From positions 61,711,318 to 61,775,317 of the forward strand of contig NC_057718.1 of assembly GCF_004010195.1 (NCBI RefSeq): a stretch of 64,000 bases of DNA, in the 5' to 3' direction. Position 1 is the stretch's first letter. Each line of letters starts with the position of its first letter. The stretch is from Chiloscyllium plagiosum (taxonomy: Eukaryota). This document shows, one piece after another, positions 1-64,000 of the stretch. The notes below the pieces were generated by a model. It worked only from the letters and a program-made list of their open reading frames with translations. It searched no databases and was not told the origin of the DNA. The translations under genes and the position numbers were made by a program.

Positions 1-224
1 CCCTCCAACCATAAGGGATGAACTCGGATTTCACCAGTTTCCTCATTTCCCCTCCCCCCACCTTGTCTCAGTCGCCTGCTGGACAAACTTTCCTCATTCC
101 TGAAGAAAGGCTTATGCCCGAAACGTCGATTCTCCTGTTCCCTGGATGCTGCCTGACCTGCTGCGCTTTTCCAGCAACACATTTTCAGCTCTGATCTCCA
201 GCATCTGCAGACCTCACTTTCTCC
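1..224 (+). mobile_element. Penelope-like element 3' end and pseudo-LTR
   Basis: 1-70 reads LQP*GMNSDFTSFLISPPPT, matching the end of the GIY-YIG ORF at 35120-35188 (LQPQGINVDFNSFLISPSPT). It is followed by the gatgctgcctgacctgctg...ccagcatctgcag terminal sequence shared with 23114, 55412, 56021 and 63843. Confidence 0.85.
98..130 (+). ncRNA. Minimal hammerhead ribozyme motif (stem II basal pair mismatched)
   Basis: CTGAAGA-A-AGGC-TTAT-GCCC-GAAA-CGTC-GA. Core boxes CUGANGA and GAAA and a GUC site are present. Confidence 0.65.
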
Positions 225-322
225 TATCCTGACCATTATGCTCGGTATTTCAGTATTTGTGTTGAAGTTTTTGTGTTACGTTTAAAATGCATATTATCAC
301 AGCACTAAAGAAAATAGGTTAC

Positions 323-792
323 TTGGAGAATAGCTTTGTAAATTCCATACCACACAAGCTTGTATGTTGTGTGGAACACTTTGATGCCATTCGAAGAGAT
401 TCTCTACATGCTTTATTGTTTGTATATTGAGAAGCCTTTACTTTCACTTGTAAAAAGTATGATTGAGTAGTTCCATTGGACTGGGAATATTGAACAAAGT
501 AGCTGATATATCTGGAAAATCTCACTCCAAACAGATCTGTAGGCTTTTCGATAGAACATAAATCTAAATTATTCCAATTTTCTCCAAACTCTCATGGATA
601 TGCTTTCTGGTGGTTCACCCATTCTCACATCCAGTAGGTGCTGATTTTAGATTATTCGTGGTGAGCCACAACAGTTGAATTCCACCATTGTCTAAGTGAT
701 AGCTTCACTTTTCAATTTTTCCACTGAAGACCAACGATGAATATGAGGGTGCTGGATTCTTTAACTCCCTTGTTCAAGGTCACTAAGGTCCA
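323..792 (-). pseudogene. Candidate decayed exon of unknown gene
   Basis: Minus strand: gatcattacag| acceptor at 793 and CCAA|gtaacc donor at 322. Protein-like frames are interrupted by stops; no repeat recognised. Confidence 0.3.
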
Positions 793-867
793 CTGTAATG
801 ATCCAATAAATCTTGGTTAACTTGGCATAAACCAGGGAATGAATCTGAAGTTTCAATGTCGAGGGGT

Positions 868-1262
868 AGCACTGTCACCTCAGGATCACACATTCAAGCA
901 TCTAGTAGTGATTTGAGCACTCGATCTAGTAATTACGGAGGAGGCCCTGAATTTTCCTAGCTGCAGTTGTTCAGAATGAGATGCTAAACCAAATGTCCCT
1001 GTCTTTTCTTCTTAGTGGGTATTAATATCTCAAAATGCCAAAAAAAAGGTTTCTAGCCACAAGTGGTCTTTCAGCCAATATCACTAAAGGAGGTTACCTG
1101 GTTACTTATTGCAATTTTATGATGTGGACTTTCATTGTGTGCATACGGCTCTGTTCCACTATACTATAACAGTGACTCCACTTTAAAAGTAATTGATCGA
1201 CTGAGAATTGTACTGGGATGGTTTGAGGTCCCGAAAGCCCCATCACAAACTCTATGCTTTCA
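868..1262 (+). mobile_element. Old Deu-domain SINE (SacSINE1/AmnSINE1-like)
   Basis: Decayed Deu-domain-like core (gagatgctaaacc...cagccaatatcactaaa...acagtgactccactttaaaagta), homologous to the reverse complements of 39355 and 61132. Confidence 0.6.
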
Positions 1263-1514
1263 CCTTTGATGGCTTCCTTCTCCTTAGCCGATACCTCACC
1301 TGTCAAAAGCCAAATCCTTGACTCAGAATTAATTGCTCTTAACTGAAAAAGTTTCCGACATTTAAGTAACTTTATAAATGCAAGCACGATCATTTGTGGA
1401 GATGGTTTGACTCTGAGGGCCCTATTTCAGTAAATGGCCATTTTACTTTCAAGAACTAGAGTGAATTGCAGGCCTTGCCTATGGCTCCACAATGAAATAT
1501 ATGATGTTGTATCT

Positions 1515-1815
1515 TCCCACCTTTCAAACCTACAACCATTACCATCTACTCAGCAAGTAGATAAGAACAGCACCACTTATAAGTTCTCCTCCAAGCCACA
1601 CACCATCCTGACTTGGAAGTGGATGACTATTCCTTCATTGTTATTGGGCAAAAATCCTGGAATTCCCTCCCTAGGGCATTGTGGGTCTATCTAAGGACAT
1701 GAAAGCAGTGGATCAAGAAGGCAATTCACCACTACCTTCTCAACAGCAACTAGAGATGGGCAATAAATGCTGGCCCAGCCAGCGATGCCCACATCCATAA
1801 ATGTACAAAACAAAA
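1515..1815 (+). mobile_element. 3' end of older CR1/L2-type LINE family
   Basis: Tail gcaactagagatgggcaataaatgctggcc shared with 27636, 43080 and 60400. Body shared with 42900-43100 and 58700-58840. Confidence 0.8.
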
Positions 1816-2034
1816 CCTCAAGGCACCAGGAGTAATCTAAGGAGGTGAATTTCACAAGTGCCTGAGGGAGGCAGCAATTTCCACACTCTCCTCTGGAGAC
1901 ACATGCTGTCACTTTGTAGTTGCTGAGATAAGATCAGTAGTTTCCCCATTATTAGCCTGAACAAACATTACCAAAAGGACAGATATTGTGACACGTTCCT
2001 TTGGCATGTTTTTCTGTTAGTCCAGTACTAGGGA

Positions 2035-2245
2035 GGGGTTGGTTACCTCAGTTGACTGGACAGCTTGCTTACAATGCAGACTGATGCCAACTGTGTGGGT
2101 TCCATTCCTGCACCTGTTGTGGTTACCAAGAAGGATTCTTTCTCAATCTCTCCCCTTGTTCAAGGTGTGGTGACCCTCAGTTTAAATCACCACCAGTTGT
2201 CTTTCTCTAATGAGACAGCAGGAATATGGCAACATTACCTTTTTA
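2035..2245 (+). mobile_element. tRNA-headed SINE (degenerate)
   Basis: A-box-like tacctcagttg and B-box-like ggttccattcc. Its 3' half matches the reverse complement of 22250-22348. Confidence 0.6.
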
Positions 2246-2351
2246 CTATATTAAATCAGTTTAACTTCACAACATGTACAAATCAAATACAGGAATGAAA
2301 ACTCACCACTGCCTACCAAGGCTAGAATTTGAAACTATTCTCCAGTAGAAT

Positions 2352-5895: not shown

Positions 5896-7701
5896 CTGTA
5901 AGTGAGACAGATAATAGCCGTAATACCTCACCTACAAGGATAAGATTTGGCGAATTAATAGACAAATATAAACCAAAGCAAATGTTTGAATTCCAGAGAT
6001 CTTAGGAATTGTCTTTTTAAGAAAATAATCAACCTTCACAAATTGCAATCACCAGCCAATAGTCTATTCATTCATTATAGGTATAGCTAGGATTGTTAAT
6101 CCTCCAGGATTACCCTGGACTCTCCAGAAATTAAAGCTAATCGCAGGACACTACAGGCAGCTACCGAGGAGAATCACCACAGGGACTTTAAACATTGCAA
6201 TCATTAAAATTCTTTGAACATTTTCTGTTTGTATTTATAAATATGGCGATATGGGAAAACATTGTTCGACTAATGGTTAAGAACCATGCATTCTGGCATT
6301 GACCAATTGACCTCTTTCAGCACTGTGCTAACTCTACTCAATCGGGTAATGAAGAGATTGTTTTTCCATTTGGCATGAGAAAGCTCTGTACAGAGATCAG
6401 TGTTTTAGGCAAACAGTGGGAGGACTGTGAGATCAGGACAATTGAAGACAATTGGCCATGCAGTAACACAGCCAGGAAGATGACCAACCAGTGGGAGGTA
6501 ACACTGAGTATAGCAATAATCAGTTATGATTCCTTTAGCATAGCAACCAAAAGTCACTGTAACTCGTCTGGCACTATTACCGTATGCTATAAAAACTTCC
6601 ATCTTCCTTTCACCTTCTACCTCTCTCCAGTGCTCGGTTGTGACTGTCACAAGTGAGTCAGTTCCAGGTATCTACCAACCTCAAACCCAAGAACAGCATA
6701 GACGTGGTTGGTTTAATTCTAATTTTACATTACCGCTTTCACCCCAAGGTGCCACTGTGCTGATTGCACTCTCTACAGCAAAGCTTAATAGAATATAGAT
6801 ATGTGTCACACAAATCTAGCATCTCTCAACGTTCACATTTGAGGTCAGGGACTTTCAGTATTCTCAGGAGCTTAATCATTTATATGAGCTAATTTCTGAC
6901 CTACTTTGTTCAGTGTCTGATTTTAGTTACGTAAAATCAATTGTATTGAATGAAAACAGTCGCCATTTCAAACAAGGTATTTCATGGTTTATGTGGCATT
7001 GAATTCAACTCATTCTTCTTCAATCAGACACACAAGAGGGGTTAAATTAGATAACTCCCAAAAACATGCACAGTGATTACTATGCATGATTAAACCATGC
7101 CTGTTGAGCACAGAGTAGGCAGCACTCCAACTCTGTGCTGCTGACTCATTTCAATTATCTTTGTGTCCAGCCAGCGCTAACTGTGTTGTTCATTGACTGG
7201 ACACATCAGCAAGGGGCCAATATCATGAGTAGTTGGCACCAAATGAAAGCTGCCTGAAGCTTTTAAAGGAGAGATGCATTGTAGCCGGAGCAGGTGCGGG
7301 GAGTCACCGTTGAAGATAATCTGACCTGAGAAAGATTGACAAATGGCAATAATGGGTAGAAAGTGGACTCTGAGGTTTTCAGACATTGCACAGGCAGCGA
7401 AACAGAGCCTGTATCATCAGGAAACAGGCAGCAAAGAGATCTGGTGAGGTTAATGTCAGGAGTTAAGGCCCATCGATATGGACAAGGTATAGTAAGAAGT
7501 ACATACCAGTGCACGACTCAATGAATGCATGTTTAAATGAAATTTTCTAATGAACTGCAGCTGCACCTCAGCAGCTTTCCAGAGATAGTCACACCCCACC
7601 ACTGCTCACACTGACAATCAGGCAACAAATCAAAATTCCTGTACCTCATCTCACAATCGCACACTGACAAAAGCTACAGGCCGAATAACCAAATCTGACC
7701 A

Positions 7702-8805
7702 TCACACACTGAACACAGTTACAGACCTGTCTCCAACACCTCACCCTCACACACTGAACACAGTTACAGACCTGTCTCCCACACCTCACCCCTCACACAC
7801 TGAACACAGTTACAGACCTGTCTCCCACACCTCACTCCTCACACTCTGCACACAGTTACAGACCTGTCTCCCACACCTCACCCTCATACACTGAACACAG
7901 TTAGAGCTGTCTCCCACACCTCACCCCTCATACACTGCACACAGTTACAGACCTGTCTCCCACACCTCACCCTCACACAGTGCACACAGTTACAGGCCTG
8001 TCTCCCACACCTCACCCCTCACACACTGAACACAGTTACAGACCTGTCCCCCACACCTCACCCCTCACACACTACACACAGTTACAGACCTGTCTCCCAC
8101 ACCTCACTCCTCACACACTGACACAGTTACAGACCTGTCTCCCACACCTCACCCCTCACACACTACACACAGTTACAGACCTGTCTCCCACACCTCACTC
8201 CTCACACACTGCACAGTTACAGACCTGTCCCCCACACCTCACCCTCACACACTGCACACAGTTACAGACCTGTCTCCCACACCTCACTCCTCACACACTG
8301 ACACAGTTACAGACCTGTCTCCCACACCTCACCCTCACACACTGCACACAGTTACAGACCTGTTTCCCACACCTCACCCTCACACACTGACACAGTTACT
8401 GACCTGTTTCCCACACCTCACTCCTCACACACTGACACAGTTACTGACCTGTTTCCCACACCTCACCCTCACACACTGAACACAGTTACAGACCTGTCTC
8501 CCACACCTCACTCCTCACACACTGACACAGTTACAGACCTGTCCCCCACACCTCACCCTCACACACTGCACACAGTTACAGAGCTGTCTCCCACACCTCA
8601 CCCCTCACACACTGAACACAGTTACAGACCTGTCCCCCACACCTCACTCCTCACACACTGACACAGTTACAGACCTGTCTCCCACACCTCACCCTCACAC
8701 ACTGCACACAGTTACAGAGCTGTCTCCCACACCTACTCTCACGCATTGAACACATTTACAGACCTGTCTCCTACATCTCACCATCACACACTGAATACAG
8801 TTATA
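7702..8805 (+). repeat. Minisatellite, unit about 40-42 bp, roughly 26 copies
   Basis: Unit acagttacagacctgtctcccacacctcacc(c)tcacacactg(a/c)ac repeated with small indels and degenerate edges. Confidence 0.98.
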
Positions 8806-8984
8806 GACATGGTATTCATGTTTGGAACATGCGGTTCCACTAAAGGTGTTACATAAATTTAAATACTTGCAGTCATAGTTTTTGGTGTTGTCTAGGATGC
8901 ACATGAAGAATCATGAATTAGGCAAAATATTGGTGAGCTGCCAGTTCTATTGCAGCAACAATTCGCAAGGTCAAAATTGACACT

Positions 8985-14696: not shown

Positions 14697-16316
14697 CAAT
14701 AGACAATAGACAATAGGTGCAGGAGTAGGCCATTCTGCCCTTCGAGCCTGCACCACCATTCAATATGATCATCCTTAATCAGTATCCTGTTCCTGCCTTA
14801 TCTCCATAACCCTTGATTCCACAATCCTTAAGAGCTCTATTCAACTCTTTCTTAAATGAATCCAGAGACTGGGCCTCCACTGCCCTCTGGGGCAGAGCAT
14901 TCCACACAGCCACCACTCTCTGGATGAAGAAGTTTCTCCTCATCTCTGTCCTAAATGGTCTACCCCATATTTTTAAGCTGTGTCCTCTGGTTCAGCACTC
15001 ACCCATCAGCGGAAACATGTTTCCTGCCTCCAGAGTGTCCAATCCTTTAATAATCTTATATGTCTCAATCAGATCCCCTCACAGTCTTCTAANNNNNNNN
15101 NNNNNNNNNNNNNNNNNNNNNNNNNNNNNNNNNNNNNNNNNNNNNNNNNNNNNNNNNNNNNNNNNNNNNNNNNNNNNNNNNNNNNNNNNNNNNNNNNNNN
15201 NNNNNNNNNNNNNNNNNNNNNNNNNNNNNNNNNNNNNNNNNNNNNNNNNNNNNNNNNNNNNNNNNNNNNNNNNNNNNNNNNNNNNNNNNNNNNNNNNNNN
15301 NNNNNNNNNNNNNNNNNNNNNNNNNNNNNNNNNNNNNNNNNNNNNNNNNNNNNNNNNNNNNNNNNNNNNNNNNNNNNNNNNNNNNNNNNNNNNNNNNNNN
15401 NNNNNNNNNNNNNNNNNNNNNNNNNNNNNNNNNNNNNNNNNNNNNNNNNNNNNNNNNNNNNNNNNNNNNNNNNNNNNNNNNNNNNNNNNNNNNNNNNNNN
15501 NNNNNNNNNNNNNNNNNNNNNNNNNNNNNNNNNNNNNNNNNNNNNNNNNNNNNNNNNNNNNNNNNNNNNNNNNNNNNNNNNNNNNNNNNNNNNNNNNNNN
15601 NNNNNNNNNNNNNNNNNNNNNNNNNNNNNNNNNNNNNNNNNNNNNNNNNATACCATGCACCCTAATTTTGCTCACTAACCTCCTATGTGGGACTTTATCA
15701 AAAGCTTTCTGAAAGTCCAGGTACACTACATCTATTGGATCTCCCTCGTCCATCTTCAGAGTTACATCCTCAAAAAATTCCAGAAGATTAGTCAAGCATG
15801 ATTTCCCCTTCATAAATCCATGCTGACTCTGACCTATCCTGTTACTACTTTCCACATGTGTCGTAATTTCATCCTTTACAATAGGCTCCAGCATCTTTCC
15901 CACCACTGAAGTCAGACTAACTGGTCTATAATTTTCTGCTTTCTCCCTCCCACCTTTCTTAAAAAGTGGTACAACATTAGCCACCCTCCAATCCGCAGGA
16001 ACTGATCCCGAATCTATCGAACTCTGGAAAATAGTCACCAACGCATCCACGATTTCTCGAGCCACCTCCTTCAGTACCCTGGGATGTAGACCATCAGGCC
16101 CCGGGGACTTATGAATCTTCAGACCTAACAGTTTCTCCAACACCAATTCCTGGCAAATATAAATTTCCTTAAGTTCAGGTCCTTCAGCCACTGTTACCTC
16201 AGGGCGATTGCTTGTGTCTTCCAATGTGAACACAGATCTGAAGTACCAATTCAATTCTTTTGCCATTTCCTTGTTCCCCGTAATATATTCCTCTGTTTCT
16301 GTCTTCAAGGGCCCAA
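14697..16316 (-). mobile_element. Young 5'-truncated CR1 LINE (second family)
   Basis: Uninterrupted RT frame KSPGPDGLHPRVLKE...NYRPVSLTS...QHGF..GKSCLTNL...YLDFQKAFDKVPH; (agacaat)n tail. Confidence 0.97.
15093..15649. other. Assembly gap (557 N)
   Basis: Run of N. Confidence 1.
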
Positions 16317-16907
16317 AACAGATTTGCAGAGAACTGTGTGTATGGCAGCTTAAAAGAATTAACCAAGTACAGAGTTATTTTCAGAGTTTTAAGATGAAGC
16401 ATTGTCTGACTACTTACAGTCAAGCAATGAATTAACATGGACAAGGCAATTCAACTGAGCAGACAAGCTGAGGCCAGGAGGTGAAATCAGTGATGGGGTG
16501 AAGGAAGAACCATATCCCAAAAGCAAGCAACTCAGGGCAATTGTTAACTTTAAAAGCAAAGTATGGTTAAACATAAACAGGGGAGACAGGGAGAGCATAC
16601 ATCAACTATCGCAGTGAGTTGTTTTTGGCGTAGCTAAAAAAAACACAAGCATGGAAACTATCCTGAAAAAAAGGCCAATTTTGCAAGGAGGAAGGTCACT
16701 TCTAAGCTGTGTTGTGGCAAAAAGCATGTACCAAAAAATCAAGAGAGAAGCCCTTAAAATTGGCCAGATTCATGAACTAGAAAATATCAATGCTATGGCA
16801 ATGCTTTTGCTTAGCAAGATCAAGAATACAGTAAGACCTGCTTTAAGTTAGACTCCGGTGCAGCAGTTTCAGTTGAACTATGGTTGATAAAAAGTTTTCT
16901 TCAGCAA

Positions 16908-17538
16908 TGATTTGAAGATGCCGGTGTTGGACTGGGGTGGACAAAGTTAAAAATCACACAATGCCAGGTTATAATCCAACAGGTTTATTTGGAAGTACTA
17001 GCTTTGGAAGCGCTGCTCCTTCATCAGGTGGTTGTGGAGTATGAGATCGTAGGACACAGAATTTATAGCAAATGTTTACAGTGTAATGTAACTGAAATGA
17101 TATATTGAAAAAGACCTGAATTGTTTGTTGAGCCCATGTATGAGTCTGTAAATCTTTTTTTAGAAATATAATCAGTCTGAACATTGGGACACAGACAGCC
17201 TCACACACGGCACCTCACATCTTCAATGCATTATCTGGGCCAGCATGACACCTATTGTTAAAGTTAACTTGAGAATGCATCTTTAAGAAAGTTCTGGAAT
17301 TTACATCTGAAAGAACTGAAACCAACATGCCCATTCTAAAAGATGAGAGACTTAACAAACAATTCAGGTCTTTTTCAAATATATAATTTTAGTTACATCA
17401 CACTATAAACTTTTGCTATAAATTCTGTGTCCTACATTCTTAAACTCTACAACCACCTGAAGGAGCAGCGCTCCGAAAGCTAGTGCTTCCAAATAAACCT
17501 GTTGGATTATAATCTGGTGTTGTGTGATTTTTAACTTC
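16908..17538. mobile_element. Penelope-derived inverted-repeat element (family B)
   Basis: Arms of about 190 bp (16947-17130 and 17350-17536) are reverse complements. Each carries a damaged hammerhead. Flanked by cttcagcaa direct repeats. Confidence 0.8.
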
Positions 17539-21000: not shown

Positions 21001-21199
21001 ACGCAGAAGGCAGTACGTGTATGAAATGAGCTGTCAGAGGAAGTGGTGGAAGCTGGTACAATTGCAACATTTGGATGTGTATATGAATAGGAAGGGTTTG
21101 GAGGGATATGGGCCGGGTGCGGGCAGGTGGGACTAGATTGAGTTGGGATATCTGGTCAGCTTGTTTCCGTGCTGTATATCTCTGTGACTCTATGACTCG
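18016..21199 (+). mobile_element. Near full-length CR1 (ORF1 esterase end plus ORF2 APE-RT) preceded by a CR1 3' fragment
   Basis: 18016-18245 is CR1 3' sequence. It is followed by ORF1 SGNH-like KDGLHLNWKGT, APE motifs (GGGVAF, GDFN, SDH), RT (GVPQG, FADD) and a ctatgact tail. Many frameshifts. Confidence 0.95.
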
Positions 21200-22348: not shown

Positions 22349-23113
22349 CCAATCATTCTAAGAGGTGATATCAAGCTATATTACTTGTGCTATTCATTGT
22401 TAGGAACAAGATGTCATCTTCCTTTCCATCAAGACATTGGGTGAGTCTTTGGATGGAGATCTTCGGACACAGAAGTCAAATATTCTTGATAGTAGTAATT
22501 ATTATTCCCGATGGATAAAATTCAAGCAACTGCAGGGTCGCACGTCTGAGGCAGTGATTACATTTTTGAAGGAGATCTTTCCAATAATTGGAGTCCCAAA
22601 TCTTGTAATCTCAGACAATGGACCACAGTTTGCTAATAATACTTTAACAAGTTAGTAGCATCATATTGATTTAACCATACTCCCAGCTTATCAGAGTACC
22701 CATCAGCCAGTGGTAAAGCTGAAAGAGCAGCGCTTTCAGTCAAAGTATAGCTTAGCTAGAAACAAAGATATTAAACTTTCATGTCTGAGCAAATCCACTT
22801 CAAAATGGTGTAGCTTCATATGAATTCTTCATGGGAAGGAGACTGAGAATTCAGCTCCCAACTCTCCCAAATAGGCCTCTACCCTGTGTCCAAGATGATG
22901 ATGTGAAAAACATGAGGGATAAAGACAAAGGTTACCTTTACAGTGAGATGTGGAACTATGACAAATGTCACAAGCCTGGAAACTACCAGACCTCCAACCA
23001 GAAGAGCCAGGTTGAATTTGAGACCAGGTTTGTTACAGACAGCACATTCACAATCATACCTCATTCAGACCAAAAGTGATATGGTGTGACAGAACAAATG
23101 TATTTTGTTTCTA

Positions 23114-23290
23114 GGAGACAATGAGCTCTGCAGATGCTGGAGATCAGAGTTGAGAGTGTGTTACTGGAAAAGCACAGCAGGTCAGGCAGCATCCTCACCT
23201 GATGAAAGGCTCCAGCCCAAAATGTGGATTTTCCTGCTCCTCGGATGCTGCCTGACCTGCTGTGCTTTTCCAGTAACACACACTCAACCT
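23114..23290. mobile_element. Penelope-derived palindromic mini-element (family A)
   Basis: Inverted arms around a decayed hammerhead (ctgatga at 23199). Approximate 15-bp TSD at 23099-23113 and 23291-23305. Confidence 0.85.
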
Positions 23291-24571: not shown

Positions 24572-24767
24572 ATGATTTGGAGATGCCGGTGTTGGACTGG
24601 GGTGTACAAAGTTAAAAATCACACAACACTAGGTTATAGTCCAACAGGTGTAATTGGAAGCACTAGCTTTCAGAACGCTGCTCCTTCATCAGGCGATTGT
24701 GTCCTGATGAAGGAATGGCGCTGCAAAATAAACCTGTTGGACTATAACTTGGTGTTGCGTGATTTTT
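24572..24767. mobile_element. Penelope-derived palindromic mini-element (family B)
   Basis: Same arms as 16908. Perfect 11-bp TSD aactatcattt at 24561-24571 and 24768-24778. Confidence 0.85.
24661..24695 (-). ncRNA. Minimal hammerhead ribozyme motif, core intact
   Basis: CGC-CUGAUGA-A-GGAGC-AGC-GUUCU-GAAA-GCU-A-GUG. Stems I and II pair with G-U wobbles; AGCU palindromic stem III; CUA site. Confidence 0.7.
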
Positions 24768-25029
24768 AACTATCATTTGGTTGACTTATTTATTTAAGTA
24801 GAGCTGGTCCTGTGCAGGAAATACTATTTTCACTCTGCTCCTAAATACCATCCTCACACCAATCCTCAGCTCCACCCCTCACCCAACAGATGACATAAAA
24901 CCTTTATAACTGAATCCAATCAAAACAAATTCCACTGGTACTTTGGGCTACTGTCCAAGAAATATGTCCATTTTATGAGCTTATCTATGTTGCCTGAAGC
25001 CAGCAATGTGCCTGGACATGAATAGTTTG

Positions 25030-25110
25030 ATGCTGCCTGAATTGCTGTGCTCTTCCAGCACCACTGATCCAGAATCTGGTTTCCAGCATCTGCAGTCATT
25101 GTTTTTACCT
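25030..25110 (+). mobile_element. 81-bp Penelope terminal fragment
   Basis: Matches 35339-35418. Perfect 13-bp TSD catgaatagtttg. Confidence 0.9.
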
Positions 25111-25879
25111 CATGAATAGTTTGCTATTGTGTGCTGACTGACCAGAAAGTTCGAAACTCCAAATAAATCTTCTAACTCAATTGGCATTTCTTTATGTAAC
25201 CACCACTTTCACTGTATGCATCAACATTATTTGGATTTATCATTAATAATAATTCTGCACTCAAGGTTACATTGAAGCTGGTGTTTTTGACAGCTTCATT
25301 CAAAATTGATCAAAAAAGCATCTGCACTGTGTACACAAAAGGGGATACTGGTGAACAGTTCCAAGATACAGCGAGAAAAATGAAGATAAGAAGATATTGC
25401 GCCAAGATAAATGAAGGGCAAAGGGTACATAAAACCACAGCCGCTTGGCAGCAAAAAAAAGGAATCTTTAGATGCATTAGGAACATTAGCTCCCTCTTGC
25501 CCCGCAGTGTGCTAACCTCGACTACAGCTGTACCATCTTTCACTCCAATGGACTTGCCTTATAGACAAATTGATTTGCAAAGGTTCAAACTGGCAGCTCT
25601 GTCTGCTTTGCATACAGAATGCTCCTCTGTGTCACAATAAAAGTAGCCTGGCAGACAGTGGAACACAGCAGGAACTGGCCGGTTCAAAGTCCAAACGACA
25701 CCCTCCCCTCACCCCAGTCTGGTTTGAAAGGTCACCGCATGTCTGGGAAAAAAAAGTCTCAGGATCTCAGCCTTTATTCAAAGGTCAGTATTATTCAACA
25801 GCAGTTAACACACTGGTGCGCAAAAAGAGTGCATAGACACAAAAGACCCTGGGGCTGCTTAGTGGTTACAACTGGAAAG

Positions 25880-28295: not shown

Positions 28296-29450
28296 ATGAT
28301 GATGCCAATTTCGACCAGGGGGCATCTGAAATGTCCACCCTCTTTCTTAACCAAAGATTCCCCAGCACCGTGGTTGACAGGACCCTCAGCCAGATTGACC
28401 CATTTCCCGCAATTCAGCCCTCACCCCCTCCCTTCTCACCAAACAGTGATAGGGTCCCCCTTGTCCTCACCAACCATCCCACCAGCATTCACATCCAGAG
28501 GATGATTAGCAGCCATTTAGCCATCTCCAGCAAGACGCCATCACCAACCACATATTCCCTGCTCCCTCCCTTGTCAGCTTTCCACAGTGCCCTTTACCTC
28601 TGGAATACTCTGGTTCACTCAATCCTTCACTGCTAACACTCCCCACCCCACCCCCTTAGATCAAGGCATCTTTCCCCACAACCACCAACACCTGCTCATT
28701 TACATCCTCCCTCCTTAGTATTCAAAGGCCCAAACACACTTTTGAGGTGAAACAGCACCTTACCTGCACTTCCCACAATCTATTCGACTGTATTCGCTGC
28801 TCACAATGTGGTCTCCTCTACATTGAGGAAATGAAGACTGGGTGACTGCTTTGCAGAACACCTACGTTCTGCCCACAGAAAAGATCCTGAACTTCCAGTT
28901 GCCTGCCACATCAATGCACCACCCTGTTCCTTGGCCTACATCACTGTCTCAGGCTTGGTCTGGAGCTCCAGTAAAGTTCAGTGCAAGCTGGAAGAACAGC
29001 ACCTCATTTTCCACTTGGGAACTCCACAACCTTCTGGACTCAATATCAAGTTCAATAATTGTAGGACTTGAGGTACCTTCTCTAATGTCCTTGTCCCAAA
29101 CCCCACACACCAGACCTTGTTGTCACACACAACCAATTGTAGCCACTAATAGTCTCCATTAGTAGCTATTCATTCTCCTAGACTGACTGTTATCCACTCC
29201 ATTGTCTGTGCAACTGTTCTTCTCTCTCTTTGGGCTATATCGCCACCCTTCATTTACTCCTTACCCTTTCCATCCACCCTATCTTTGGCATAAAAAACAA
29301 CTTTTTCCTAGTCACCATCAGTTCCGGAAAATATTTAATGGACCAAAATGTCAACTCTGATTTCTCTCCACAGATGCTGCCAGACCTGCTGAGATTTTCC
29401 AGCATTTCTGTTTTTGTTTCTGATTTCCAGCATCTGCGCTTTTGTTCCTT
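28296..29450 (+). mobile_element. Older Penelope-like element (RT thumb, GIY-YIG, pLTR)
   Basis: EMSTLFLNQRFPSTVVD, DRVPLVLTNHP and CIRCSQCGLLYIEE are homologous to 34434-35188. Terminal cagatgctgccagacctgctg. Confidence 0.9.
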
Positions 29451-34131: not shown

Positions 34132-35418
34132 TTAGGTGCGGGATATGGACGAGATGCGTTGGAGGGCATCTTTAACCACGTGGGAAGGGATATTGCGGTC
34201 TCTAAAGAAGGAGGCCATCTGGTGTGTTCTATGGTGGAACCGCTCCTCCTGGGAGCAGATACGGCGGAGGCGGAGGAATTGGGAATACGGGATGGCATTT
34301 TTGCAAGGGATAGGGTGGGAAGAGATGTAATCCAGGTAGCTGTGGGCGTCAGTGAGTTTGTAGAAATTCCCAATTCCTCCACCTCCGCCGTATCTGCTCC
34401 CAGGAGGACCAGTTCCACCATAGAACACACCAGATGGCCTCCTTCTTTAGAGACCGCAATTTCCCTTCCCACGTGGTTAAAGATGCCCTCCAACGCATCT
34501 TGTCCACATCCCGCACCTCCGCCCTCAGACCCAACCCCTCCAACCGCAACAAGGACAGAACGTCCCTGGTGCTCACCTTCCACCCTACCAACCTTCGCAT
34601 AAACCAAATCATCCGCCGACATTTCCGCCACCTCCAAACAGACCCCACCACCAGGGATATATTTCCCTCCCCACCCCTTTCCGCCTTCCGCAAAGACCGT
34701 TCCCTCCGTGACTACCTGGTCAGGTCCACGCCCCCCTACAACCCACCCTCCCATCCTGGCACCTTCCCCTGCCACGGCAGGAACTGTAAAACCTGCGCCC
34801 ACACCTTCTCCCTCACCTCCATCCAAGGCCCTAAAGGAGCTTCCACAGTTTTACTTGCACATCCACTAATATCATTTATTGTATCCGTTGCTCCCGATGC
34901 GGTCTCCTCTACATCGGGGAGACTGGGCGCCTCCTAGCAGAGTGCTTTAGGGAACATCTCCGAGACACCCGCACCAATCAACCAAACCGCCCTGTGGCCC
35001 AACATTTCAACTCCCCCTCCCACTCTGCCGAGGATATGGAGGTGCTGGGCCTCCTCCACCGCCGCTCCCTCACCACCAGACGCATGGAAGAAGAACGCCT
35101 CATCTTCCGCCTCGGAACACTTCAACCCCAGGGCATCAATGTGGACTTCAACAGCTTCCTCATTTCCCCTTCCCCCACCTCATCCTAGTTTCTAACCTCC
35201 ATCTCAACACTGTCCCCTTGACCTGTCCGGACTTGTCCAACCTGCCCAGCTCATTTTCCACCTATCCACTCCACCCTCTCCTCCCTGACCTCCTGATGAA
35301 GGGCTTTTGCCCGAAACGTTGATTTTGCCTGTCCTCGGATGCTGCCTGAATTGCTGTGCTCTTCCAGCACCACTGATCCAGAATCTGGTTTCCAGCATCT
35401 GCAGTCATTGTTTTTACC
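34132..35418 (+). mobile_element. Young Penelope-like element with inverted 5' segment
   Basis: RT C-terminus (SYLDY.SSHP..CKNAIPYSQFLRLRRICS) lies on the minus strand at 34132-34364. The plus-strand part has CHGRNCKTC, GIY-YIG NIIYCIRCSRCGLLYIGET, VAQHFN, LQPQGIN and then the pLTR. Confidence 0.95.
35291..35322 (+). ncRNA. Minimal hammerhead ribozyme motif in Penelope pLTR
   Basis: CUGAUGA-A-GGGC-UUUU-GCCC-GAAA-CGU-U. Perfect stem II and ACGU palindrome; only 2-bp stem I. Confidence 0.7.
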
Positions 35419-36522: not shown

Positions 36523-36526
36523 GAAT

Positions 36527-49861: not shown

Positions 49862-50640
49862 ATATTGCATGAAGTGAATTGAATTGGTGGAAGACTGGCA
49901 TCAGTGATACTGGGAATGTCAGAAGGAGATTAAGATGGATCATTCATTTGGCACTTCTGGCTGAAGTTAATTACCTTGGTTTTTTGCACTGATATGATGA
50001 GCATCCCCATAATTGAGGATGGGGATATTTATGGAGTCCCTCTTTCTCCTGTTGGTTGTTTAAGCATACTGGTTATGACAGAACTGTGTTCAATATGGAA
50101 GTGATACCCCATTGTAGCTTCACCAGGTTGCCAATTCACTTAAAGTTAAAATAAAACAAAAGAACCAATCATTGGAGAGGAAAGGATTGGAAGGATATGG
50201 GCCAGGTGCAGGGAAATGGGATAAGCGTGTATGGACATTTTTACCAGTTTGGGCCAAAGGGCCTGTCTCCGTGCTATAGAACTCGATGGCTCTATGACTC
50301 TGACTGCGGATGCTGTAAATCAGAAATAAAAACAGAAATTGCTGGAAAAGCTCAGCAGGTCTGACGAAGGGTCACCAAACCTGAAACATTAATTGATTTC
50401 TCAGCAGATCTTGCAGCATCTGTGTAGAGAAATCAATTAACGTTTCGGGTCCAGTGATCCTTCCTCAGACCTGCTGAGCTTTTCCAGCAATTTCTGTTTT
50501 TGTCACTTATAGTTATGTCTGGTGCTGCTCCTGGCATGCCTTCCTGCAGTCCTCATTGAAGTAGGGCTAATTCTTGGATCAGCTATAATGCTAAAGTGAG
50601 GTATATGACAGTTTCTTGAGCGTATAATTTGTGATTGAAC
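49862..50640 (-). mobile_element. Older CR1/L2-type LINE fragment, interrupted
   Basis: ctggtgctgctcctggcatgcc is the reverse complement of 32705-32728; 49900-50060 matches 32880-33010. Confidence 0.75.
50149..50502. mobile_element. Penelope-derived palindrome (family C) with nested CR1 tail at 50167-50301
   Basis: Arms 50328-50400 and 50426-50501 are inverted; hammerhead boxes on both strands; flanks cacttaaagtta / cacttatagtta. Confidence 0.75.
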
Positions 50641-53789: not shown

Positions 53790-54579
53790 CAGAAGATAAA
53801 TGCGAGGTGCTGCATTTTGAAAAAGCAAATCAGAGCAGGACTTAGACACTTAATGGTAAGTTCCTGGGGAGTGTTGCTGAACAAAAAGACCTTGGAGTGC
53901 AGGTTCACAATTCCTTGAATGTAGAGTTGCAGGTAGATAGGATAATGAAGAAGGCGTTTGGTGTGGCTTCCTTTATTGGTCAGAGCATTCAGTATAGGAG
54001 ACGGGAGGTCATGTTGCGGCTGTACAAGACCTCCCATTGTTAGGCAATTTTTGGAATATTGCATGCATTTCTGGTCTCCTTCCTAGCGGAAGGATGTTGT
54101 GAAACTTGAAAGGGTACAGAAAAGATTTACAAGGATGTTGCCAGAGTTGGAGGATTTGAGCTATAGGGAGAGGCTGAACAGGCTGGGGCTGTTTTCCCTG
54201 GAGCATCAGAGGCTAAGGGGTGACCTTATTGTGGTTTATAAAATCATGAGGGTCATGGATAGGATAAATAAACAAGGACTTTTCCCTGGGGTCGTGAAGT
54301 CCAGAACTAGAAGGCATAGGTTTAGGGTGAGAGGGCAAAGATATAAAAGGGACCTAAGGGGCAACTTTTTCACAAAGAGGGCAGTACGTGTATGGAATGA
54401 GCTGCCAGAGGAAGTGGTGGAGGCTGGTATAATTACAGCATTTAAAAAGGCATCTGGATGGGTATATGCATAGGAAGTGTTGAGAGGGATATGGGCCAAG
54501 TACTGGCAAATGGGAGTAGATTAGGTTAGGATATCTGATGTGCATGGATGAGTTTCTGTGCTGTACATCTCTATGACTC
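53790..54579 (+). mobile_element. Young CR1 3' part
   Basis: KLERVQKRFTRMLP...RGDLI...RGNFF..WNELP; ctatgact tail. Confidence 0.95.
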
Positions 54580-55411
54580 AGTGACAGACTTGGCTGGAAC
54601 TGAATGGAAGGAGGCCAGGCCCTAGACTTGCCAATGTACAATTTTGGGTTCATATTAACTAGCAAAGAACTAGAGTAGTCCCATTGGAGCCTGAGGCTAC
54701 ATCTTGCTAAAAGAGAGCTGCCGAGGTGAAACGCCCCCCAACGTCCCAAGGAGGAAGCCTGAGGAGTTCTGGTTTTGATCCAAGAAATCTGTCTGCTTTG
54801 GTATTTCTGAGACTTTGTTTCAAATCTGGCCTCACAATTTCCTCTCTGTCTCAACAGCATACAACTCTTCTGATGGGGCCGTTAGGACTCTAGAGCTGCC
54901 AGCACAACCAGAGGGCACTGGCTGTATTTAATTAGTTAGTAAACTTGCAAATGGTCAAGTAAGCTTGCAAATGGCAAAGGTTATACCAGCCTCACTACTC
55001 TCCAGTGTGGGCTCAGGTATCCCATTTGACTCTGACAATAGCGTCCCAAAGCACATGAATATCTGTTCCTCTGAATCTTGGATGTCACCCCCATTAGCTT
55101 TCCACCCTCCCCTGTCCTTCTCTCCTGCCTCCCAACCTAAATGAAAATCCATGCAATCTTTATCCCCATAACTTGCCTTACACATCCTGATACAATGCAG
55201 GAGAACCAAGATTTGGGAACAACAAAATTGAGACTGAATTAAACTAAATGTAGTGAATTCTAGCAAAAAAAAAGAGTTAAGGAATATGGACTTATATTTT
55301 GATTTTATTGTACAACAAAACTAAAATTATTCTTTACTCAAATCAATATAGTCCCCACACAGGATGAAAACTGAGTGGCAAAGGAATTCTTTTGACTCAT
55401 GTGTCATAATA

Positions 55412-55578
55412 GCTGAAAATGTATTGCTGGAAAAGCATAGCAGGTCAGGCAGCATCCAAGGAGCAGGAGAATCGACGTTTCGGGCATGAGCCCTTCTTCA
55501 GGATGCTGCCTGACCTGCTGCGCTTTTCCAGCAACACATTTTCAGCTCTGATCTCCAGCATCTGCAGTCCTCACTTTT
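55412..55578. mobile_element. Penelope-derived palindromic mini-element (family A), young
   Basis: Inverted arms; perfect 15-bp TSD tcatgtgtcataata at 55397-55411 and 55579-55593. Confidence 0.92.
55471..55504 (-). ncRNA. Minimal hammerhead ribozyme motif, best-preserved copy
   Basis: AUC-CUGAAGA-A-GGGC-UCAU-GCCC-GAAA-CGU-C-GAU: 3-bp stem I, 4-bp stem II, ACGU palindrome, GUC site. Confidence 0.8.
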
Positions 55579-56020
55579 TCATGTGTCATAATAACCAATG
55601 TATCTTATTTAAAAGATCCAAATTGCTGTCAGTGGTGGCCTTCACCACAGACCACTTCAGAATAATCATTGCTTGTTGAATGTGTATTGAGAACAAATTT
55701 CATTAACTTTCTAAGCACAATGATCCAAGTTTACAACTGTACTTCAGAACACCCAGAGAAAATTCAAAATACAAAACCTCCCAATTTGTGATCTGCCAAA
55801 GTGCTGTCCTATACCATAAATTCAAGATCTTTGAGAATTACTAACCACCAGCTAAAGCCAGCAGGCCATTCCTAAACAAAGTAGGTCAGAGTTTAATTTA
55901 ATACATTGGAAAAATAGGATAGTTGAGAAAAATCACCACTAAAAAGGATCATTCTGCAAACCAGTCTTCTTCAGTTTGGGGGAAAAAACAACTAGTAAAC
56001 TGCCCCAACACTATCATCAG

Positions 56021-56246
56021 TTGAAAGTGTGGTGCTGGAAAAGCACAGCAGGTCACACAGCATCCGAGGAGCAGGTGAATCAATATTTCAGGCATAAGCC
56101 CTTCATCAGAAAGTCCTCATTCCTGATGAAGGGCTTATGCCTGAAATGGTGACTCTCCTACTTCTCAGATGCTGCCTGACCTGCTGTGCTTTTCCTGCAT
56201 CACACTTTTGTCTCTGATCCCCAGCATCTGCAGTCCTCATTTGTCC
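56021..56246. mobile_element. Penelope-derived palindromic mini-element (family A), two hammerhead relics
   Basis: Arms inverted about 56110-56121; ctgatga cores on both strands; decayed 13-bp flanking repeat. Confidence 0.85.
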
Positions 56247-56295: not shown

Positions 56296-56428
56296 AGTTC
56301 TGACCAAGAGTCACTGCACTTGAAACATTAATTCTGTTTTTTTCTCTCCCCAGATAGTGCCAGATCTGCTGAGTTACTCCAATACTTTCTGTTTCTGTTT
56401 TAGATCTCCGACATCCACCATTCTTCAT
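56296..56428 (+). mobile_element. Old Penelope pLTR (family C)
   Basis: ctgaccaagagtcactgcacttgaaacattaa decayed hammerhead, plus a terminal sequence like 29350-29440. Confidence 0.65.
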
Positions 56429-59721: not shown

Positions 59722-60335
59722 GGGTTATTGGTCAGAGCACTGAGTATAGGAGTTGGGAGGTCATGTTGCAGCTGAACAGGACATTGGTGAGGCCATTTCT
59801 GGAATATTGCATGCAATTCTTATCTCCTTCTTAGTGGAGGGATGTTGTGAAACTTGAAAGGGTTCAGAAAAGATTTACAAGGATGTTGCCAGGTTTGGAG
59901 GATTTGAGCTATAGGGAGAGGCTGAATAGGCTGGGGCTGCTTTCCCTGGAGCATCGAAGCTGATGGGTGATCTCAGAGAGGTTTATAAAATAGAGAGGGC
60001 AAATAGACAAAGTCTTTTCCCTGGGTTAGGCAAGTCCAGAACTAGAGGACATTGGTTTAGGGTGAGAGGGCAAGGATATAAAAGAGACCTAAGGGGCAAC
60101 TTTTTCACACAGAGGGTGGTACATGTATGGAATGAGCTACCAGAGGAAGTGGTGGAGGCTGGTACAATTGCAACATTTAAAAGGCATATTGATGGGTATT
60201 TGAATTGGAAGGGTTTAGAGGGATATGGGCCAAATGCTGGCAAATGGGACTAGATTAGATTGGGATATCTGCTCGGCATGGATGAGTTGGACCGAAGGGT
60301 CTGTTTCATGCTGTACATCTCTATGACTCTATGAC
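59722..60335 (+). mobile_element. Young CR1 3' part
   Basis: Near identical to 20606-21199; ctatgact tail. Confidence 0.95.
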
Positions 60336-60528: not shown

Positions 60529-60600
60529 ATGCCAAGGTAATCACAATTCAATATATCCTGATTGATCAGCAATCATGTATGCATGTATTGTCGTACTTAC

Positions 60601-61120
60601 CTGGTAATAATATTGGTAATTGACTGACTTGTCAAGGTCTGGTTTTCAGAGTTGTGCCATGTATTGTATGGATGCCTATATCAAACACATCAGATTGACA
60701 CAAACAGTGACAGTACCATTCAGCTCCAACATCATGCACTGACATGATATATTAATCACCTGCAGGTGAGATCATAGAGTGGTGAATAGGGACTACATTT
60801 CTTGCAATTACTTCCATTTAATAGCCACAGAAACACTGTCTGGGAGCTGAGCTATTCCATCACTGTGGACTAAATTTCCATTTCCTTCAATTTTGACAGT
60901 TATTTCTTCATCCCCTCTTCCTCTTGGGCTGGGAAAGGATTGGCAATTGATGCAGATGCTTTTTGAACATTGCCAAGGCTGCAAGAATTTCCATCTTCCT
61001 TTTCTGCTGTCACCATTCCTGTGCTTTCTGAATGCATCCAAATCTGAACATGTAGCTGTCAATAATTATTGCAAGCATTTCTCTCACAAAGAATTGGTTG
61101 CTATCACCACATTTCCATTC
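60601..61120 (-). pseudogene. Candidate decayed exon (5' boundary uncertain)
   Basis: Consensus donor CAG|gtaagt at 60600; protein-like frames with stops. Confidence 0.25.
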
Positions 61121-61131
61121 TGGTGAGATTT

Positions 61132-61566
61132 AAAAGACTTGCACTTATTTGGACTGCATCATTTAGACTCAGAATATTCCAAAGTGTTTTAATATCAACA
61201 AAGTACCTTGAAGTTTAATTATTGTTGTAATGGAGGAAACAAAACAGCTAGCTTGCACAATCAGTCCCTACAAGCAGCAAGTCACAATTATAGTGATCAC
61301 AATCTGTTGCTATTATGTTGACTAAAGGATAAAAAAGTCAGGATGTCATGGGCAACTCCTCCATCCTTTTTCAAAATAATATCTTTTGCACCCGGAGTGG
61401 ACAGTCAGGGCCTCAGTTTAATCTTGCAGTGACAAGACAGCATCAACAACAATGTAGCATCCTTTATTACTGCACTGGAGTCTCAGCACTTTTGTCCTCA
61501 ATCTGTGGACTAGAAGTTGAACCTAAAACCTTCTAACTGAGAGGCACGAATGCGACCATCTAAGAC
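61132..61566 (-). mobile_element. Old Deu-domain SINE (SacSINE1-like), near full length
   Basis: aaagacttgca tail, Deu core and tRNA-like head (ttgaacctaaaaccttctaactgagaggc). Confidence 0.75.
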
Positions 61567-63102
61567 TAATATTCACATATTAGTTTTTAAACAATTAGAA
61601 TTGACTTCCACTTGTACGTAAGAAACAGTTATCTTTTTCGTAAAATAATAACAATCGAAATAAACACTGGATGCATTCTGGATGTCTTGAACACGTCATT
61701 CATACTTCCAATGCAAGTAGCAGAATAGATTAATGCAAAATTGAATAAGTTGATGCATTGACAGAAATGGAGAGAGAGATTGTTTAAAAAGGTGCACAGG
61801 AAGAAAGAAAAAGACATGTCTGTAAATATATGCAGGGTAAAGGAGTTTCCTGCCCATGTCCATAGCAAAATGAGCAGTAGTAATAATTATTCACTACAAT
61901 TAAAATAATGTTGAAATTTTAAATATGGCAACTTTAAAGTTATTCTCTGAAATAATTGTGATGAACTGTTTCATTACATCTAAACTTGGGACAGGTCATT
62001 TGACATTCAACCAACCCTCATTTCAGCAAATTAAGCTCTGATGGGTAGGAGGATTGAAAGGATTAGATCCTAATTATCATGCTTCTAAAACTATACTGGT
62101 AGTAACGATGGAAGCAGTCCTAAAAAGTGTTACCCAGATTTTATGTTTGTGCTGGAAAATATAGATTTAATTTCAGACCAATGATGGTTGAGTATTGTTC
62201 AGCCACTGAATTAGTAGTGTAGATAGGAAAGCATTTTCCATCTTTTTTTCAGATGCAGAGTGATTAATATACACTTGCAAGGAAGGTTAATGTTCCTACA
62301 GTTCCTTTAACAAATATATGTGAAGGTAAGTCATAGATATATGGAATTTGAAATTCTGAAATAAGTGCAGCTGTTAGCCAAAAGAAACAGGGTGAAGTCA
62401 AAGATCACCTTCAGTTCTGAAATCCTTAAGGTTAAGACTTGATACTAAGTTACCTTGGGTCCAACAGAATGAAAGCAAGGCCAAACAACAAACTCCCAAA
62501 TGATGTACCCACATGATCTATTAATGACTCTTACAAATGTCCTGTTTGGAAAGTAAACACTTTCAATTAAGACAAACAGTCAAAGGTCACCCACAATCAG
62601 AGAAGGAAGGAAGGTATGGCACAGAATATGGCCAAACCAGAATATGATCCCCAGGGAGTTCATTGGCAATAATATACTTTTTAATGATTAATGAATCCAG
62701 TGAAAATTACAAATGCTTGGGACAGACCTTAAGATCATTACAGCCCCCGCAATGGAAACATACTTTCTAATAGGTTATTTATTTCACATGTTTGGCTGTA
62801 TATTTTTCATCAAATCCATTCTGAACAATAAGGGTTGAATTGGAACATCTCTAAAGAAAGAGAAACATGTCATTACATTTAAGCATAAACCAGCTGGACT
62901 TCATTCTGGCCTGATACTCAGATAATAAAGGGGCATATTAAAATCCTCACTATACAGAATCTCAATTGCTGATATCCCAGATAGAAAAAAACACTGGAAG
63001 CAGGAGTCAACAATTTAACAGGAGGAGTTTTCAAAATATCACACTGATATTGAAAATCGTCCAACTGAAAATGTCTAATGTTTATTCGAGTAGAAGACTT
63101 AC

Positions 63103-63420
63103 CCATCTTGTCCTTGATATTAATGCAAAGATCAATGGACTCTTCCTGTAAGTCACTTCTCAACCTTATTTTGTCAAAGTCTTCAGTTATCTCTGTACTG
63201 AGAAACCTGGAAACTTGATCAAGAAGTGGAAGATAAGAAGTAAACAATTTGATGACCTCTTCTTGATTGTACAGAGGCTTCATACGCTTATCACACAGTA
63301 AATTGATGATGTTTTCACATGAAAAATCTTCAGCATTCAGGGCAACCTCTTTACAAGTTGTATTCCTTTAACAAGTCAGTAAATTTTCAGCTGCTTCAGC
63401 AGGAAGCTATACATTTTGAC
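63103..63420 (-). pseudogene. Exon-like 318-nt phase 1-1 segment with two in-frame stops
   Basis: tatttcttacag| acceptor and ATGG|gtaagt donor; length divisible by 3. QNV*LPAEAAENLLTC*RNTTCKEVAL...SIDLCINIKDKM. Confidence 0.5.
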
Positions 63421-63842
63421 CTGTAAGAAATAGAACTCTGCAGCAAGTTGGAACCAGAATCTCAGTGATTGTACAATGACAAGGTCAAAAGTCTACTTGG
63501 ATGTTGGTCAACTGACTTGTTTTAACATACATTAATTTCTACTGACCTATGTATATTATGAAGACAAATTCATGAATTTTAGAATCATCTAAGATAAAAG
63601 AAGTTGCAAATGTCCATCCATCTTTAGGGTAGCAATTCACCTACTTATCCTGGTATTTTGCATATTAAATGCACAAAACTGTATCAAAATACATGAAGAA
63701 ATGTATGAATGAGCATAAAATGGTAAAATGTGCACACCAAATTAAAAATTGGAAATTAAATTTATAATTTTTTCTCTGACACTTGAAGTGTTGTGCTGCC
63801 AGCCCTTAAAAACATTTTACATAGCACAGTGTGTACAAAGTC

Positions 63843-64000
63843 AAGAGTGTGATGCTGGAAAAGCACAGCAGGTCAGGCAACATCCAAGGAGTAGGAGAAT
63901 CAACATTTCAGGCATAAGCCCTTCATCAGGAATCCTGATGCTGGGCTTATGCCCGAAACGTCAATTCATCTGCTCCTGGGATGCTGCCTGACCTGCAGTG
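63843..64000. mobile_element. Penelope-derived palindromic mini-element (family A), runs off the window
   Basis: Arms inverted about 63931-63933; hammerhead boxes on both strands. Confidence 0.85.

What the first reader, a model, noticed from the sequence alone, without database searches (positions are those of the whole stretch)
98..63970. Three or more unrelated Penelope families share one hammerhead architecture with covarying stems
Seen: family A uses stem II GGGC/GCCC and stem III ACGU (100, 23199, 35293, 55471, 56078, 56123, 63898, 63934). Family B uses GGAGC/GCUCC, AGCU, stem I CAC/GUG and a CUA site (16995, 17454, 24661). Family C uses GGGUC/GACCC-like stems and ACGU (50361, 50436, 56297). 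Flanks differ, but CUGANGA, the extra A, GAAA and the 4-nt palindrome persist. Inference: covariation across families indicates selection on ribozyme structure. More than a dozen relics in 64 kb would imply a very large genomic hammerhead load.
Basis: partly seen in the sequence, partly recalled or inferred. Interest (0 to 1): 0.75.

Follow-up and report, generated by a model that had tools for sequence, protein, structure and literature searches.

The report
Penelope retroelement ends carrying minimal hammerheads
These motifs are real, mostly decayed copies of a tiny hammerhead-type RNA motif already published for Penelope-like jumping genes, present over 110,000 times in this genome, and most copies begin just in front of the motif, likely because they were copied from the uncut, capped start of the element's RNA.

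Summary
All 14 motifs are present; they are 10 insertions. Four pass a strict hammerhead descriptor, six with one stem mismatch; shuffles give about 0.02 and 0.2. Genome-wide exact counts: A 93,870, B 18,482, C 374; reversed controls 0. A and B end Neptune-type Penelope-like elements (RT + GIY-YIG); C does so in one decayed relic. The families are not unrelated: A, C and a new family D share one tail, and the A and B proteins are 29% identical. Covariation holds: 67 of 72 stem cells pair across eight subfamilies, and one double change occurs 546 times against 20 expected. The architecture is published (Cervera 2014), with at most about 9,000 copies per genome in the text I read. Beyond that: 131 of 244 random copies start within -12..+7 of CUGA, an extra G is 4-fold enriched there (family A), B-D carry a TATA-like box about 30 nt upstream, and family B RNA reads are polyadenylated 27-30 nt past the predicted cut. 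A pile-up at the cut site was inconclusive; cleavage is untested. The scan noted these points before on other DNA of this and other genomes.

The parts
100..127 (+). Family A (A2) hammerhead motif; core intact, G10.1 changed; end of a PLE 3' UTR cut by the window start
16999..17027 (-). Family B motif, G12 lost; left arm of an inverted pair 16907-17537 with a 12-nt TSD
17457..17482 (+). Family B motif with 3-nt core deletion; right arm of the same insertion
23199..23226 (+). Family A motif, core broken; inverted unit 23112-23290 with 13-nt TSD
24664..24692 (-). Family B motif, complete core, two G-U wobbles; unit 24572-24771 with 12-nt TSD
24704..24730 (+).
25029..25109 (+). Family A1 tail without hammerhead, 15-nt TSD
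28301..29437 (+). Old PLE relic with a family C-type end: decayed RT thumb/linker/endonuclease, degenerate motif near 29324-29352, tail
   Evidence: tblastn (E 1e-14, 2e-9)
34134..35418 (+). 5'-truncated family A1 PLE: inverted 5' piece (34134-34365, minus), RT thumb, Cys linker, GIY-YIG (frameshifted near 34840), stop 35186-35188, 3' UTR, tail
   Evidence: (GIY-YIG E 0.0035, below Pfam's cut-off)
35293..35320 (+). Family A1 hammerhead motif, complete, about 105 nt after the endonuclease stop, sense strand
50361..50390 (+). Family C motif, decayed stems; arm of inverted unit 50304-50503
50439..50468 (-). Family C motif, complete core, one stem II mismatch
55474..55501 (-). Family A2 motif, complete; inverted unit 55411-55580 with 17-nt TSD
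56082..56109 (-). Family A motif passing the descriptor (stem III decayed to ATAT); left arm of 56019-56246
56123..56150 (+). Family A motif, U16.1 lost; right arm
56300..56330 (+). Family C-type motif, G8 lost
63902..63929 (-). Family A motif, core intact, stem III ATGT; left arm of 63836-64000
63935..63962 (+). Family A motif, A9 lost; right arm

Best explanation
The motifs are minimal type I hammerhead sequences at the ends of Penelope-like retrotransposons (likely Neptune clade), kept base-paired across subfamilies, and the scattered genomic copies are decaying stubs that were likely made by reverse transcription of uncut RNA running off its capped start just upstream of the motif. Shown: motif, counts, link to RT + GIY-YIG ORFs (A, B), covariation, pile-up of 5' ends at the motif, two 3' end classes about 30-40 nt apart, TSDs, inverted arms. 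Inferred: the pLTR promoter starts transcription at an Inr-like A 4 nt (A, C, D) or 8 nt (B) before CUGA; RT starts internally about 85-130 nt downstream, as shown in vitro for the Anolis element; it reads through the uncleaved site and either runs off the cap (extra G) or switches template there (inverted arm). Selection on the stems acted on active master elements. The ribozyme would cut slowly, as a dimer or with protein help, removing the capped first 32-37 nt. Confidence: identity about 0.95; cap run-off step about 0.55.
For: Counts 93,870 / 18,482 / 374 with reversed controls 0; 21 descriptor hits in 574,959 random bases, 20 in families A/B, against 0-2 in 10 shuffles. ORFs: A carries RVT_1 (E 6.6e-7) and a weak GIY-YIG hit, CX4CX2C linker and two Cys inside GIY-YIG; B has its own RT-EN ORF with the motif 316-780 nt after it in 12 of 25 loci. 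Covariation: 67 of 72 cells pair versus a permutation mean of 49.0 (0 of 100,000 reach it); 34 of 36 for four lineages versus 25.0; stem II pair 2 in A: 546 double changes against 20 expected from 1,535 and 1,235 single changes, forming a subfamily with its own UTR. 5' ends: 131 of 244 tail-anchored copies in 1.16 Mb start at -12..+7 (6.6 per nt) against 0.22 per nt at -99..-13; loose read ends at -4 in three public runs. G versus A before the boundary 2,734: 1,495, 4.0-fold over the dinucleotide background. TATAAA-like box at -38/-40 in 27 of 64 B copies, near -33 in C and -35 in D. Literature: PMC4209133 (same architecture), PMC11167929 (internal RT start, uncut template, protein-assisted cleavage), PMC3846280 (TATA and Inr-like motif in a pLTR).
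Against: No full-length element with a 5' pLTR was recovered: five candidates were assembly-gap artefacts and no tail continued into shared sequence, so the motif's place at the start of the mRNA is inferred. RNA reads showed no pile-up of molecule starts (library unsuited). 65 of the 131 boundary copies are inverted junctions, and starts spread into the core. Among 40 G-boundary loci, 22 were inverted; of 11 direct events with a readable TSD the G lay inside the duplicated target in 7 and was untemplated in only 4. Family A has no TATA box. Rfam finds no hammerhead family even at E 10. No cleavage assay.
Confidence: 0.8

Rival explanations
1. Same elements, but the 5' pile-up comes from RT stalling or template switching at the folded (or protein-bound) hammerhead inside a longer RNA, not from a transcription start.
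For: Half of boundary copies are inverted; starts spread from -12 to +7 and continue at 1.3 per nt inside the motif; microhomology to the target is common.
Against: Mode lies upstream of the core at an Inr-like A, at a family-specific distance about 30 nt after TATA-like boxes in B, C, D; 4-fold G excess where the element has C or T.
Confidence: 0.3
2. The hammerhead cuts monomers that are ligated into circles, and copies are made by copying round the circle (model of PMC4209133); an intact site in DNA would then be a religated junction.
For: Core and stems are kept in all eight subfamilies; 24 of 100 listed copies lacking GAAA begin at the predicted cut base (hand tally).
Against: The neighbouring position has 21 of 100, and many of the 24 are explained by microhomology or CpG decay, so there is no clean peak; 9 of 244 random copies start at +26..+30; a circle does not predict a stop just upstream of the motif.
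Confidence: 0.2
3. The short units are a separate non-autonomous element (retrozyme- or SINE-like) that copies itself from its own short RNA.
For: Most copies are 90-140 nt and several have TSDs; retrozymes derive from PLE pLTRs (bioRxiv 10.64898/2026.07.22.740005, abstract).
Against: Short copies carry the same subfamily sequences as ORF-linked copies, have variable 5' junctions and are not in tandem arrays.
Confidence: 0.1
4. The structure is conserved but no longer catalytic in vivo (a protein-binding or promoter-proximal hairpin).
For: Core mutants did not affect insertion in vitro, and no reads ended at the cut site in Anolis (PMC11167929); Naiads spread without canonical hammerheads (PMC8557442); polyadenylated reads span the uncut B motif.
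Against: CUGANGA, GAAA, U16.1 and a non-G at 17 persist in both deep lineages while stems change (the core itself was part of the search pattern, positions 16.1 and 17 were not).
Confidence: 0.15
5. One reading: unrelated families converged on, or separately acquired, one ribozyme architecture.
For: B's tail does not align with A, C or D at DNA level (z 3 or less).
Against: A, C, D tails are homologous (z 6-21) and A and B proteins are 29% identical over 358 aa, E 4e-46; the motif is near-universal in canonical PLEs (PMC4209133).
Confidence: 0.05

Closest known systems
[quoted passage not shown]
   Same: Type I, extra base between 9 and 10.1, G10.1-C11.1, palindromic 15.2-16.2, short stem I, several covarying consensus families per genome, mostly solo or opposite-strand pairs.
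   Different: Stem II is 4-5 bp (7-8 bp in Schistosoma); over 112,000 exact copies against about 4,000 (coelacanth) and 9,000 (Xenopus) in that text; no shark is named in the parts read.
Neptune-clade EN+ PLEs (definitions from PMC8557442, passages read)
   Same: RT then C-terminal GIY-YIG with CCHH, CX2-5CxxC linker, inverted 5'-truncated arm, 30-40 nt optional tail, hammerhead near the 3' end.
   Different: No tree against named references was built, so Neptune versus Nematis rests on the linker motif.
Poseidon element of Anolis carolinensis (PAc); PMC11167929 (parts 1-2 of 4 read)
   Same: Hammerhead upstream of two RT start sites that give the tail; uncut RNA is the template.
   Different: Other clade; ORF start inside the hammerhead there, not located here; the parts read do not describe a 5' pile-up or extra G.
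Non-LTR retrozymes; bioRxiv 10.64898/2026.07.22.740005 (part 1 of 5 and passages; includes one chondrichthyan genome; supplements closed)
   Same: Type I hammerheads related to PLE pLTRs in vertebrates.
   Different: Retrozymes are tandem repeats; these are dispersed solo or inverted stubs.

Membership tests
PLE min-HHR (type I minimal hammerhead) | CUGANGA and GAAA core, U16.1, H17 | tested here: met
   Majority states in 8 subfamilies; 6 of 14 window copies have lost a core base
PLE min-HHR (type I minimal hammerhead) | Extra base between 9 and 10.1; G10.1-C11.1; palindromic stem III | tested here: met
   II.1 G-C in 8 of 8; III.2 C-G in 6, G-C in 2; extra A in all 21 random-sample hits where it was optional
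PLE min-HHR (type I minimal hammerhead) | Compensatory changes between consensus families | tested here: met
   67 of 72 cells pair; 546 versus 20. Not phylogeny-corrected; R-scape not run
PLE min-HHR (type I minimal hammerhead) | Present in both flanking pLTRs of a full element | tested here: inconclusive
   3' copy shown; no full element with a 5' pLTR recovered
PLE min-HHR (type I minimal hammerhead) | Self-cleavage as dimer or with protein | not testable with these tools
   No assay; cut-site footprint inconclusive
Rfam hammerhead families | Score above a family's threshold | tested here: not met
   0 hits at gathering; no hammerhead family at E 10
EN+ Penelope-like element | RT followed by GIY-YIG endonuclease with CCHH | tested here: met
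   A; B: (motifs read from translations); C only through a decayed window relic; D not examined
EN+ Penelope-like element | 5' truncation, inverted arm, optional 30-40 nt tail, TSD | tested here: met
Neptune clade | CX2-5CxxC linker between RT and EN | tested here: met
   CX4CX2C in both A and B
Neptune clade | Placement in an RT phylogeny | not tested
   No named references fetched
Non-LTR retrozyme | Tandem units each bearing a hammerhead | tested here: not met
   No such array in the window; genome-wide not tested

The most novel reading that the evidence does not exclude
The PLE pseudo-LTR is built like a retroviral U3-R-U5: promoter, then a short repeated R region that is the hammerhead itself at the capped 5' end (in family B followed by a working poly(A) site and GU-rich run). 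The ribozyme would act as a slow decapping switch on the element's own mRNA, and the hundreds of thousands of stubs would be 'strong-stop-like' cDNAs that ran off the cap, giving a genome-scale record of how this class starts and ends reverse transcription.
Probability: 0.3. Interest if true: 0.7.

Novelty: new member of a known kind. Interest (0 to 1): 0.38.

Why it matters
The finding as written is a rediscovery of a published motif in a new host. It matters in two smaller ways. The load (over 112,000 exact, about 124,000 descriptor-complete, roughly 750,000 relic arms by extrapolation) is more than ten times the largest count in the text of the founding paper. And the copy ends give testable predictions on an open question, the role of the PLE hammerhead and how PLE cDNA ends are made: transcription start 4-8 nt before the core, uncut template, cap-derived G, and a poly(A) site just past the cut in family B.

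Tried and rejected
Rfam: no hammerhead hit at either threshold. PDB sequence search with the A protein: 0 hits at E 1. MAFFT misregisters family B by one base, so pair counts were made by core-anchored extraction instead; subfamily labels there use the left base of pair II.2 (A', B') and part of the 3' arm of stem I (C, D), so those cells are partly selected. Search for families with a pyrimidine-purine pair at stem II position 3 gave 43 scattered mutants, no family. First boundary run had false peaks (+39 in A, +52..62 in C) from chimeric references; hits to four references (L067, L186, L247, L225) were dropped, leaving 244 of 431 raw tail hits after edge, N and duplicate filters. Cut-site footprint: inconclusive (tallied by hand from the first 100 of 1,109). 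Long ORFs sought as full elements were N-gap artefacts. Sequencing-run search: no RNA holder listed; run X20 laid no reads on the A2 stretch. Monomer folding by MFE gives stem II but not the core and is uninformative. Lunse et al. on PLE hammerhead dimers was not held; I saw only its citation in PMC6765202. Literature searches for a shark PLE hammerhead count, a cap-derived G or a pLTR poly(A) signal returned nothing on point; subscription papers and supplements were not covered.
Full report
Observation. All 14 cited positions carry a CUGANGA...GAAA-type motif. A family-agnostic descriptor finds 4 perfect motifs in the window and 6 with one stem II mismatch; of 100 dinucleotide shuffles, 98 gave no perfect hit and 82 no one-mismatch hit. 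Six of the 14 have lost a core base and two more have a non-palindromic stem III. The 14 belong to 10 insertions, four of them head-to-head pairs; 12-17 nt target-site duplications were found for 5 of 9 units scanned. Rfam has no matching family.

Load. The genome (G000, 3.56 Gb) holds 93,870 exact family A patterns, 18,482 B and 374 C, with 0 for reversed controls. In 60 evenly spaced 10-kb stretches (574,959 bases) the descriptor found 21 hits, 20 in families A and B, against 0-2 in 10 shuffles, which extrapolates to about 124,000. Tail-anchored relic arms number 244 in 1,155,980 bases, about 750,000 genome-wide and 13.5 per 64 kb, so this window is ordinary for the genome. That the host is a shark is my recall of its repeats plus the wording of earlier scan notes; I did not test it.

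What carries them. At 34356-35418 the motif lies 105 nt after the stop of a frameshifted RT-thumb / Cys-linker / GIY-YIG frame. Longer copies give RVT_1 and weak GIY-YIG hits, a CX4CX2C linker and two cysteines inside GIY-YIG, the Neptune-type pattern in PMC8557442 (passages). Family B has its own RT-EN frame with the same motifs, and the hammerhead follows it by 316-780 nt in 12 of 25 loci. Family C is tied to an ORF only through the decayed relic at 28301-29437. A and B proteins are 29% identical over 358 aa; A, C and a further family D share a homologous tail (z 6-21) while B's tail does not align. So there are two deep lineages of one retroelement class, not three unrelated families.

Covariation. 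A search forcing both sides of stem II pair 2 away from G-C returned 2,106 hits against 22 in the control, mostly A-U versions in three lineages: A' (GAGC/GCUC), B' (GAAGC/GCUUC) and D (GAGUC/GACUC). For family A the four states count 93,870, 1,535, 1,235 and 546, where independence predicts 20 double changes; the doubles form a subfamily with its own UTR, so this is one ancestral event amplified. Majority states of eight subfamilies pair in 67 of 72 stem cells (permutation mean 49.0, 0 of 100,000 reach it) and 34 of 36 for four lineages (mean 25.0, 1 of 100,000); seven of nine pair positions show two or more standard pair types. The test ignores relatedness, subfamilies A', B' and D rest on 5-6 copies, and some cells were used to define labels. 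R-scape was not run. The selection concerns master elements; single changes at 1.3-1.6% per side show copies decaying.

Copy ends. Anchoring on the tail and aligning to natural long copies, 131 of 244 copies start at -12..+7 relative to CUGA (6.6 per nt), 19 at -99..-13 (0.22 per nt), 39 extend beyond -100, 24 start at +8..+25, 9 at +26..+30 and 22 later; 65 of the 131 are inverted junctions (hits to four chimeric references dropped). Public reads laid on an A2 copy show loose ends with mixed flanks at -4 in three runs; these are read-through of genomic stubs and confirm the boundary, not a transcription start. The boundary is an Inr-like A (pattern recalled); a TATAAA-like box lies about 30 nt before it in B, C and D but not A. 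Genome-wide, G precedes the A boundary 2,734 times and A 1,495 times, 4.0-fold over background. In 40 of those G loci, 22 were inverted and 18 direct; of 11 direct events with a readable TSD, the G was untemplated in 4 and inside the duplicated target in 7, mostly with further AT microhomology. A cDNA ending in an extra C would explain both, but target preference is not excluded. 3' ends fall mainly in two classes about 30-40 nt apart, as the two RT start sites of PMC11167929 predict. Starts at the predicted cut base were 24 of 100 listed, with 21 at the next base and 4 at the previous one, and many are explained by microhomology or CpG decay (hand tally): inconclusive.

Poly(A) site in family B. 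Raw RNA reads (run X19, a run with the same species label as the best DNA holders) laid on a B copy carry poly(A) at +55..+58 in about 1,400 reads, 27-30 nt past the predicted cut. A(A/T)TAAA lies at +38..+40 in 50 of 64 B copies and a GU-rich run follows the site. The reads could come from one host gene that ends in a B copy. They show uncut RNA exists; cut products would be too short to see.

Mechanism. Shown: a structurally conserved hammerhead-type motif ends several PLE subfamilies and most stubs begin at it. Inferred: transcription starts just before the motif, RT starts internally downstream, reads through the uncut site and runs off the cap or switches template; the ribozyme is slow and needs a dimer or protein (PMC4209133 parts 1-2; PMC11167929 parts 1-2), and cutting would decap the RNA. 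The 5' pLTR itself was not recovered: candidate full elements were assembly gaps. Rivals are RT stalling at structure, circle-based copying, a separate short element and a non-catalytic hairpin.

Comparison and novelty. The architecture and between-family covariation are the published min-HHR of metazoan PLEs (PMC4209133), which reports about 4,000 and 9,000 copies in coelacanth and Xenopus. A TATA and Inr-like motif in a pLTR is noted in PMC3846280 (passages) and an internal promoter with a 5' intron in PMC2377424 (passages). Searches found no paper giving a shark count, a cap-derived G or a pLTR poly(A) signal; supplements of PMC4209133 and of the 2026 preprint, which includes one chondrichthyan, were not seen and may bear on this. 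My cap reading was noted before I saw earlier scan notes, which report the same ideas on this and other genomes, including the family B poly(A) site; they are not independent support. Verdict: real, a new member of a known kind, interest 0.38.

Noticed in passing
window 7698-8808: 45-nt tandem array, 24.6 copies, 91% matches.
   Followed up: no
window 15652-16374 (-), 19527-21196 (+), 35418-36524, 53794-54590, 59725-60335: Fragments of an abundant LINE (RVT_1 hits); one abuts the A1 tail at 35418.
   Followed up: no
window 25029-25109 and 35338-35418: An 81-nt A1 tail is 100% identical between two sites 10 kb apart, one with its own 15-nt TSD; a very young insertion or local conversion.
   Followed up: partly
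L055:1556-1559 (family B; equivalent lies in window copies 16995 and 24661): Polyadenylated RNA reads end 27-30 nt past the predicted cut, behind a conserved A(A/T)TAAA; B copies may supply 3' ends to host transcripts.
   Followed up: partly
L193, L207, L212 (centre of each locus): Fourth family D: stem II GAGUC/GACUC, stem I AGCU/AGCU, CATAAA box upstream; ORF not examined.
   Followed up: partly
L257:1735-2220: Family B 3' UTR holds a long (CA)-rich low-complexity tract, often an assembly gap.
   Followed up: no
window 62918-63367 (-) and 25200-25640 (+): Open frames of about 150 aa without a significant Pfam hit; may include host exons.
   Followed up: no
L011, L003 (subfamily A3 tail, about +76): AATAAA occurs in 19 of 197 family A copies, at one position.
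   Followed up: no
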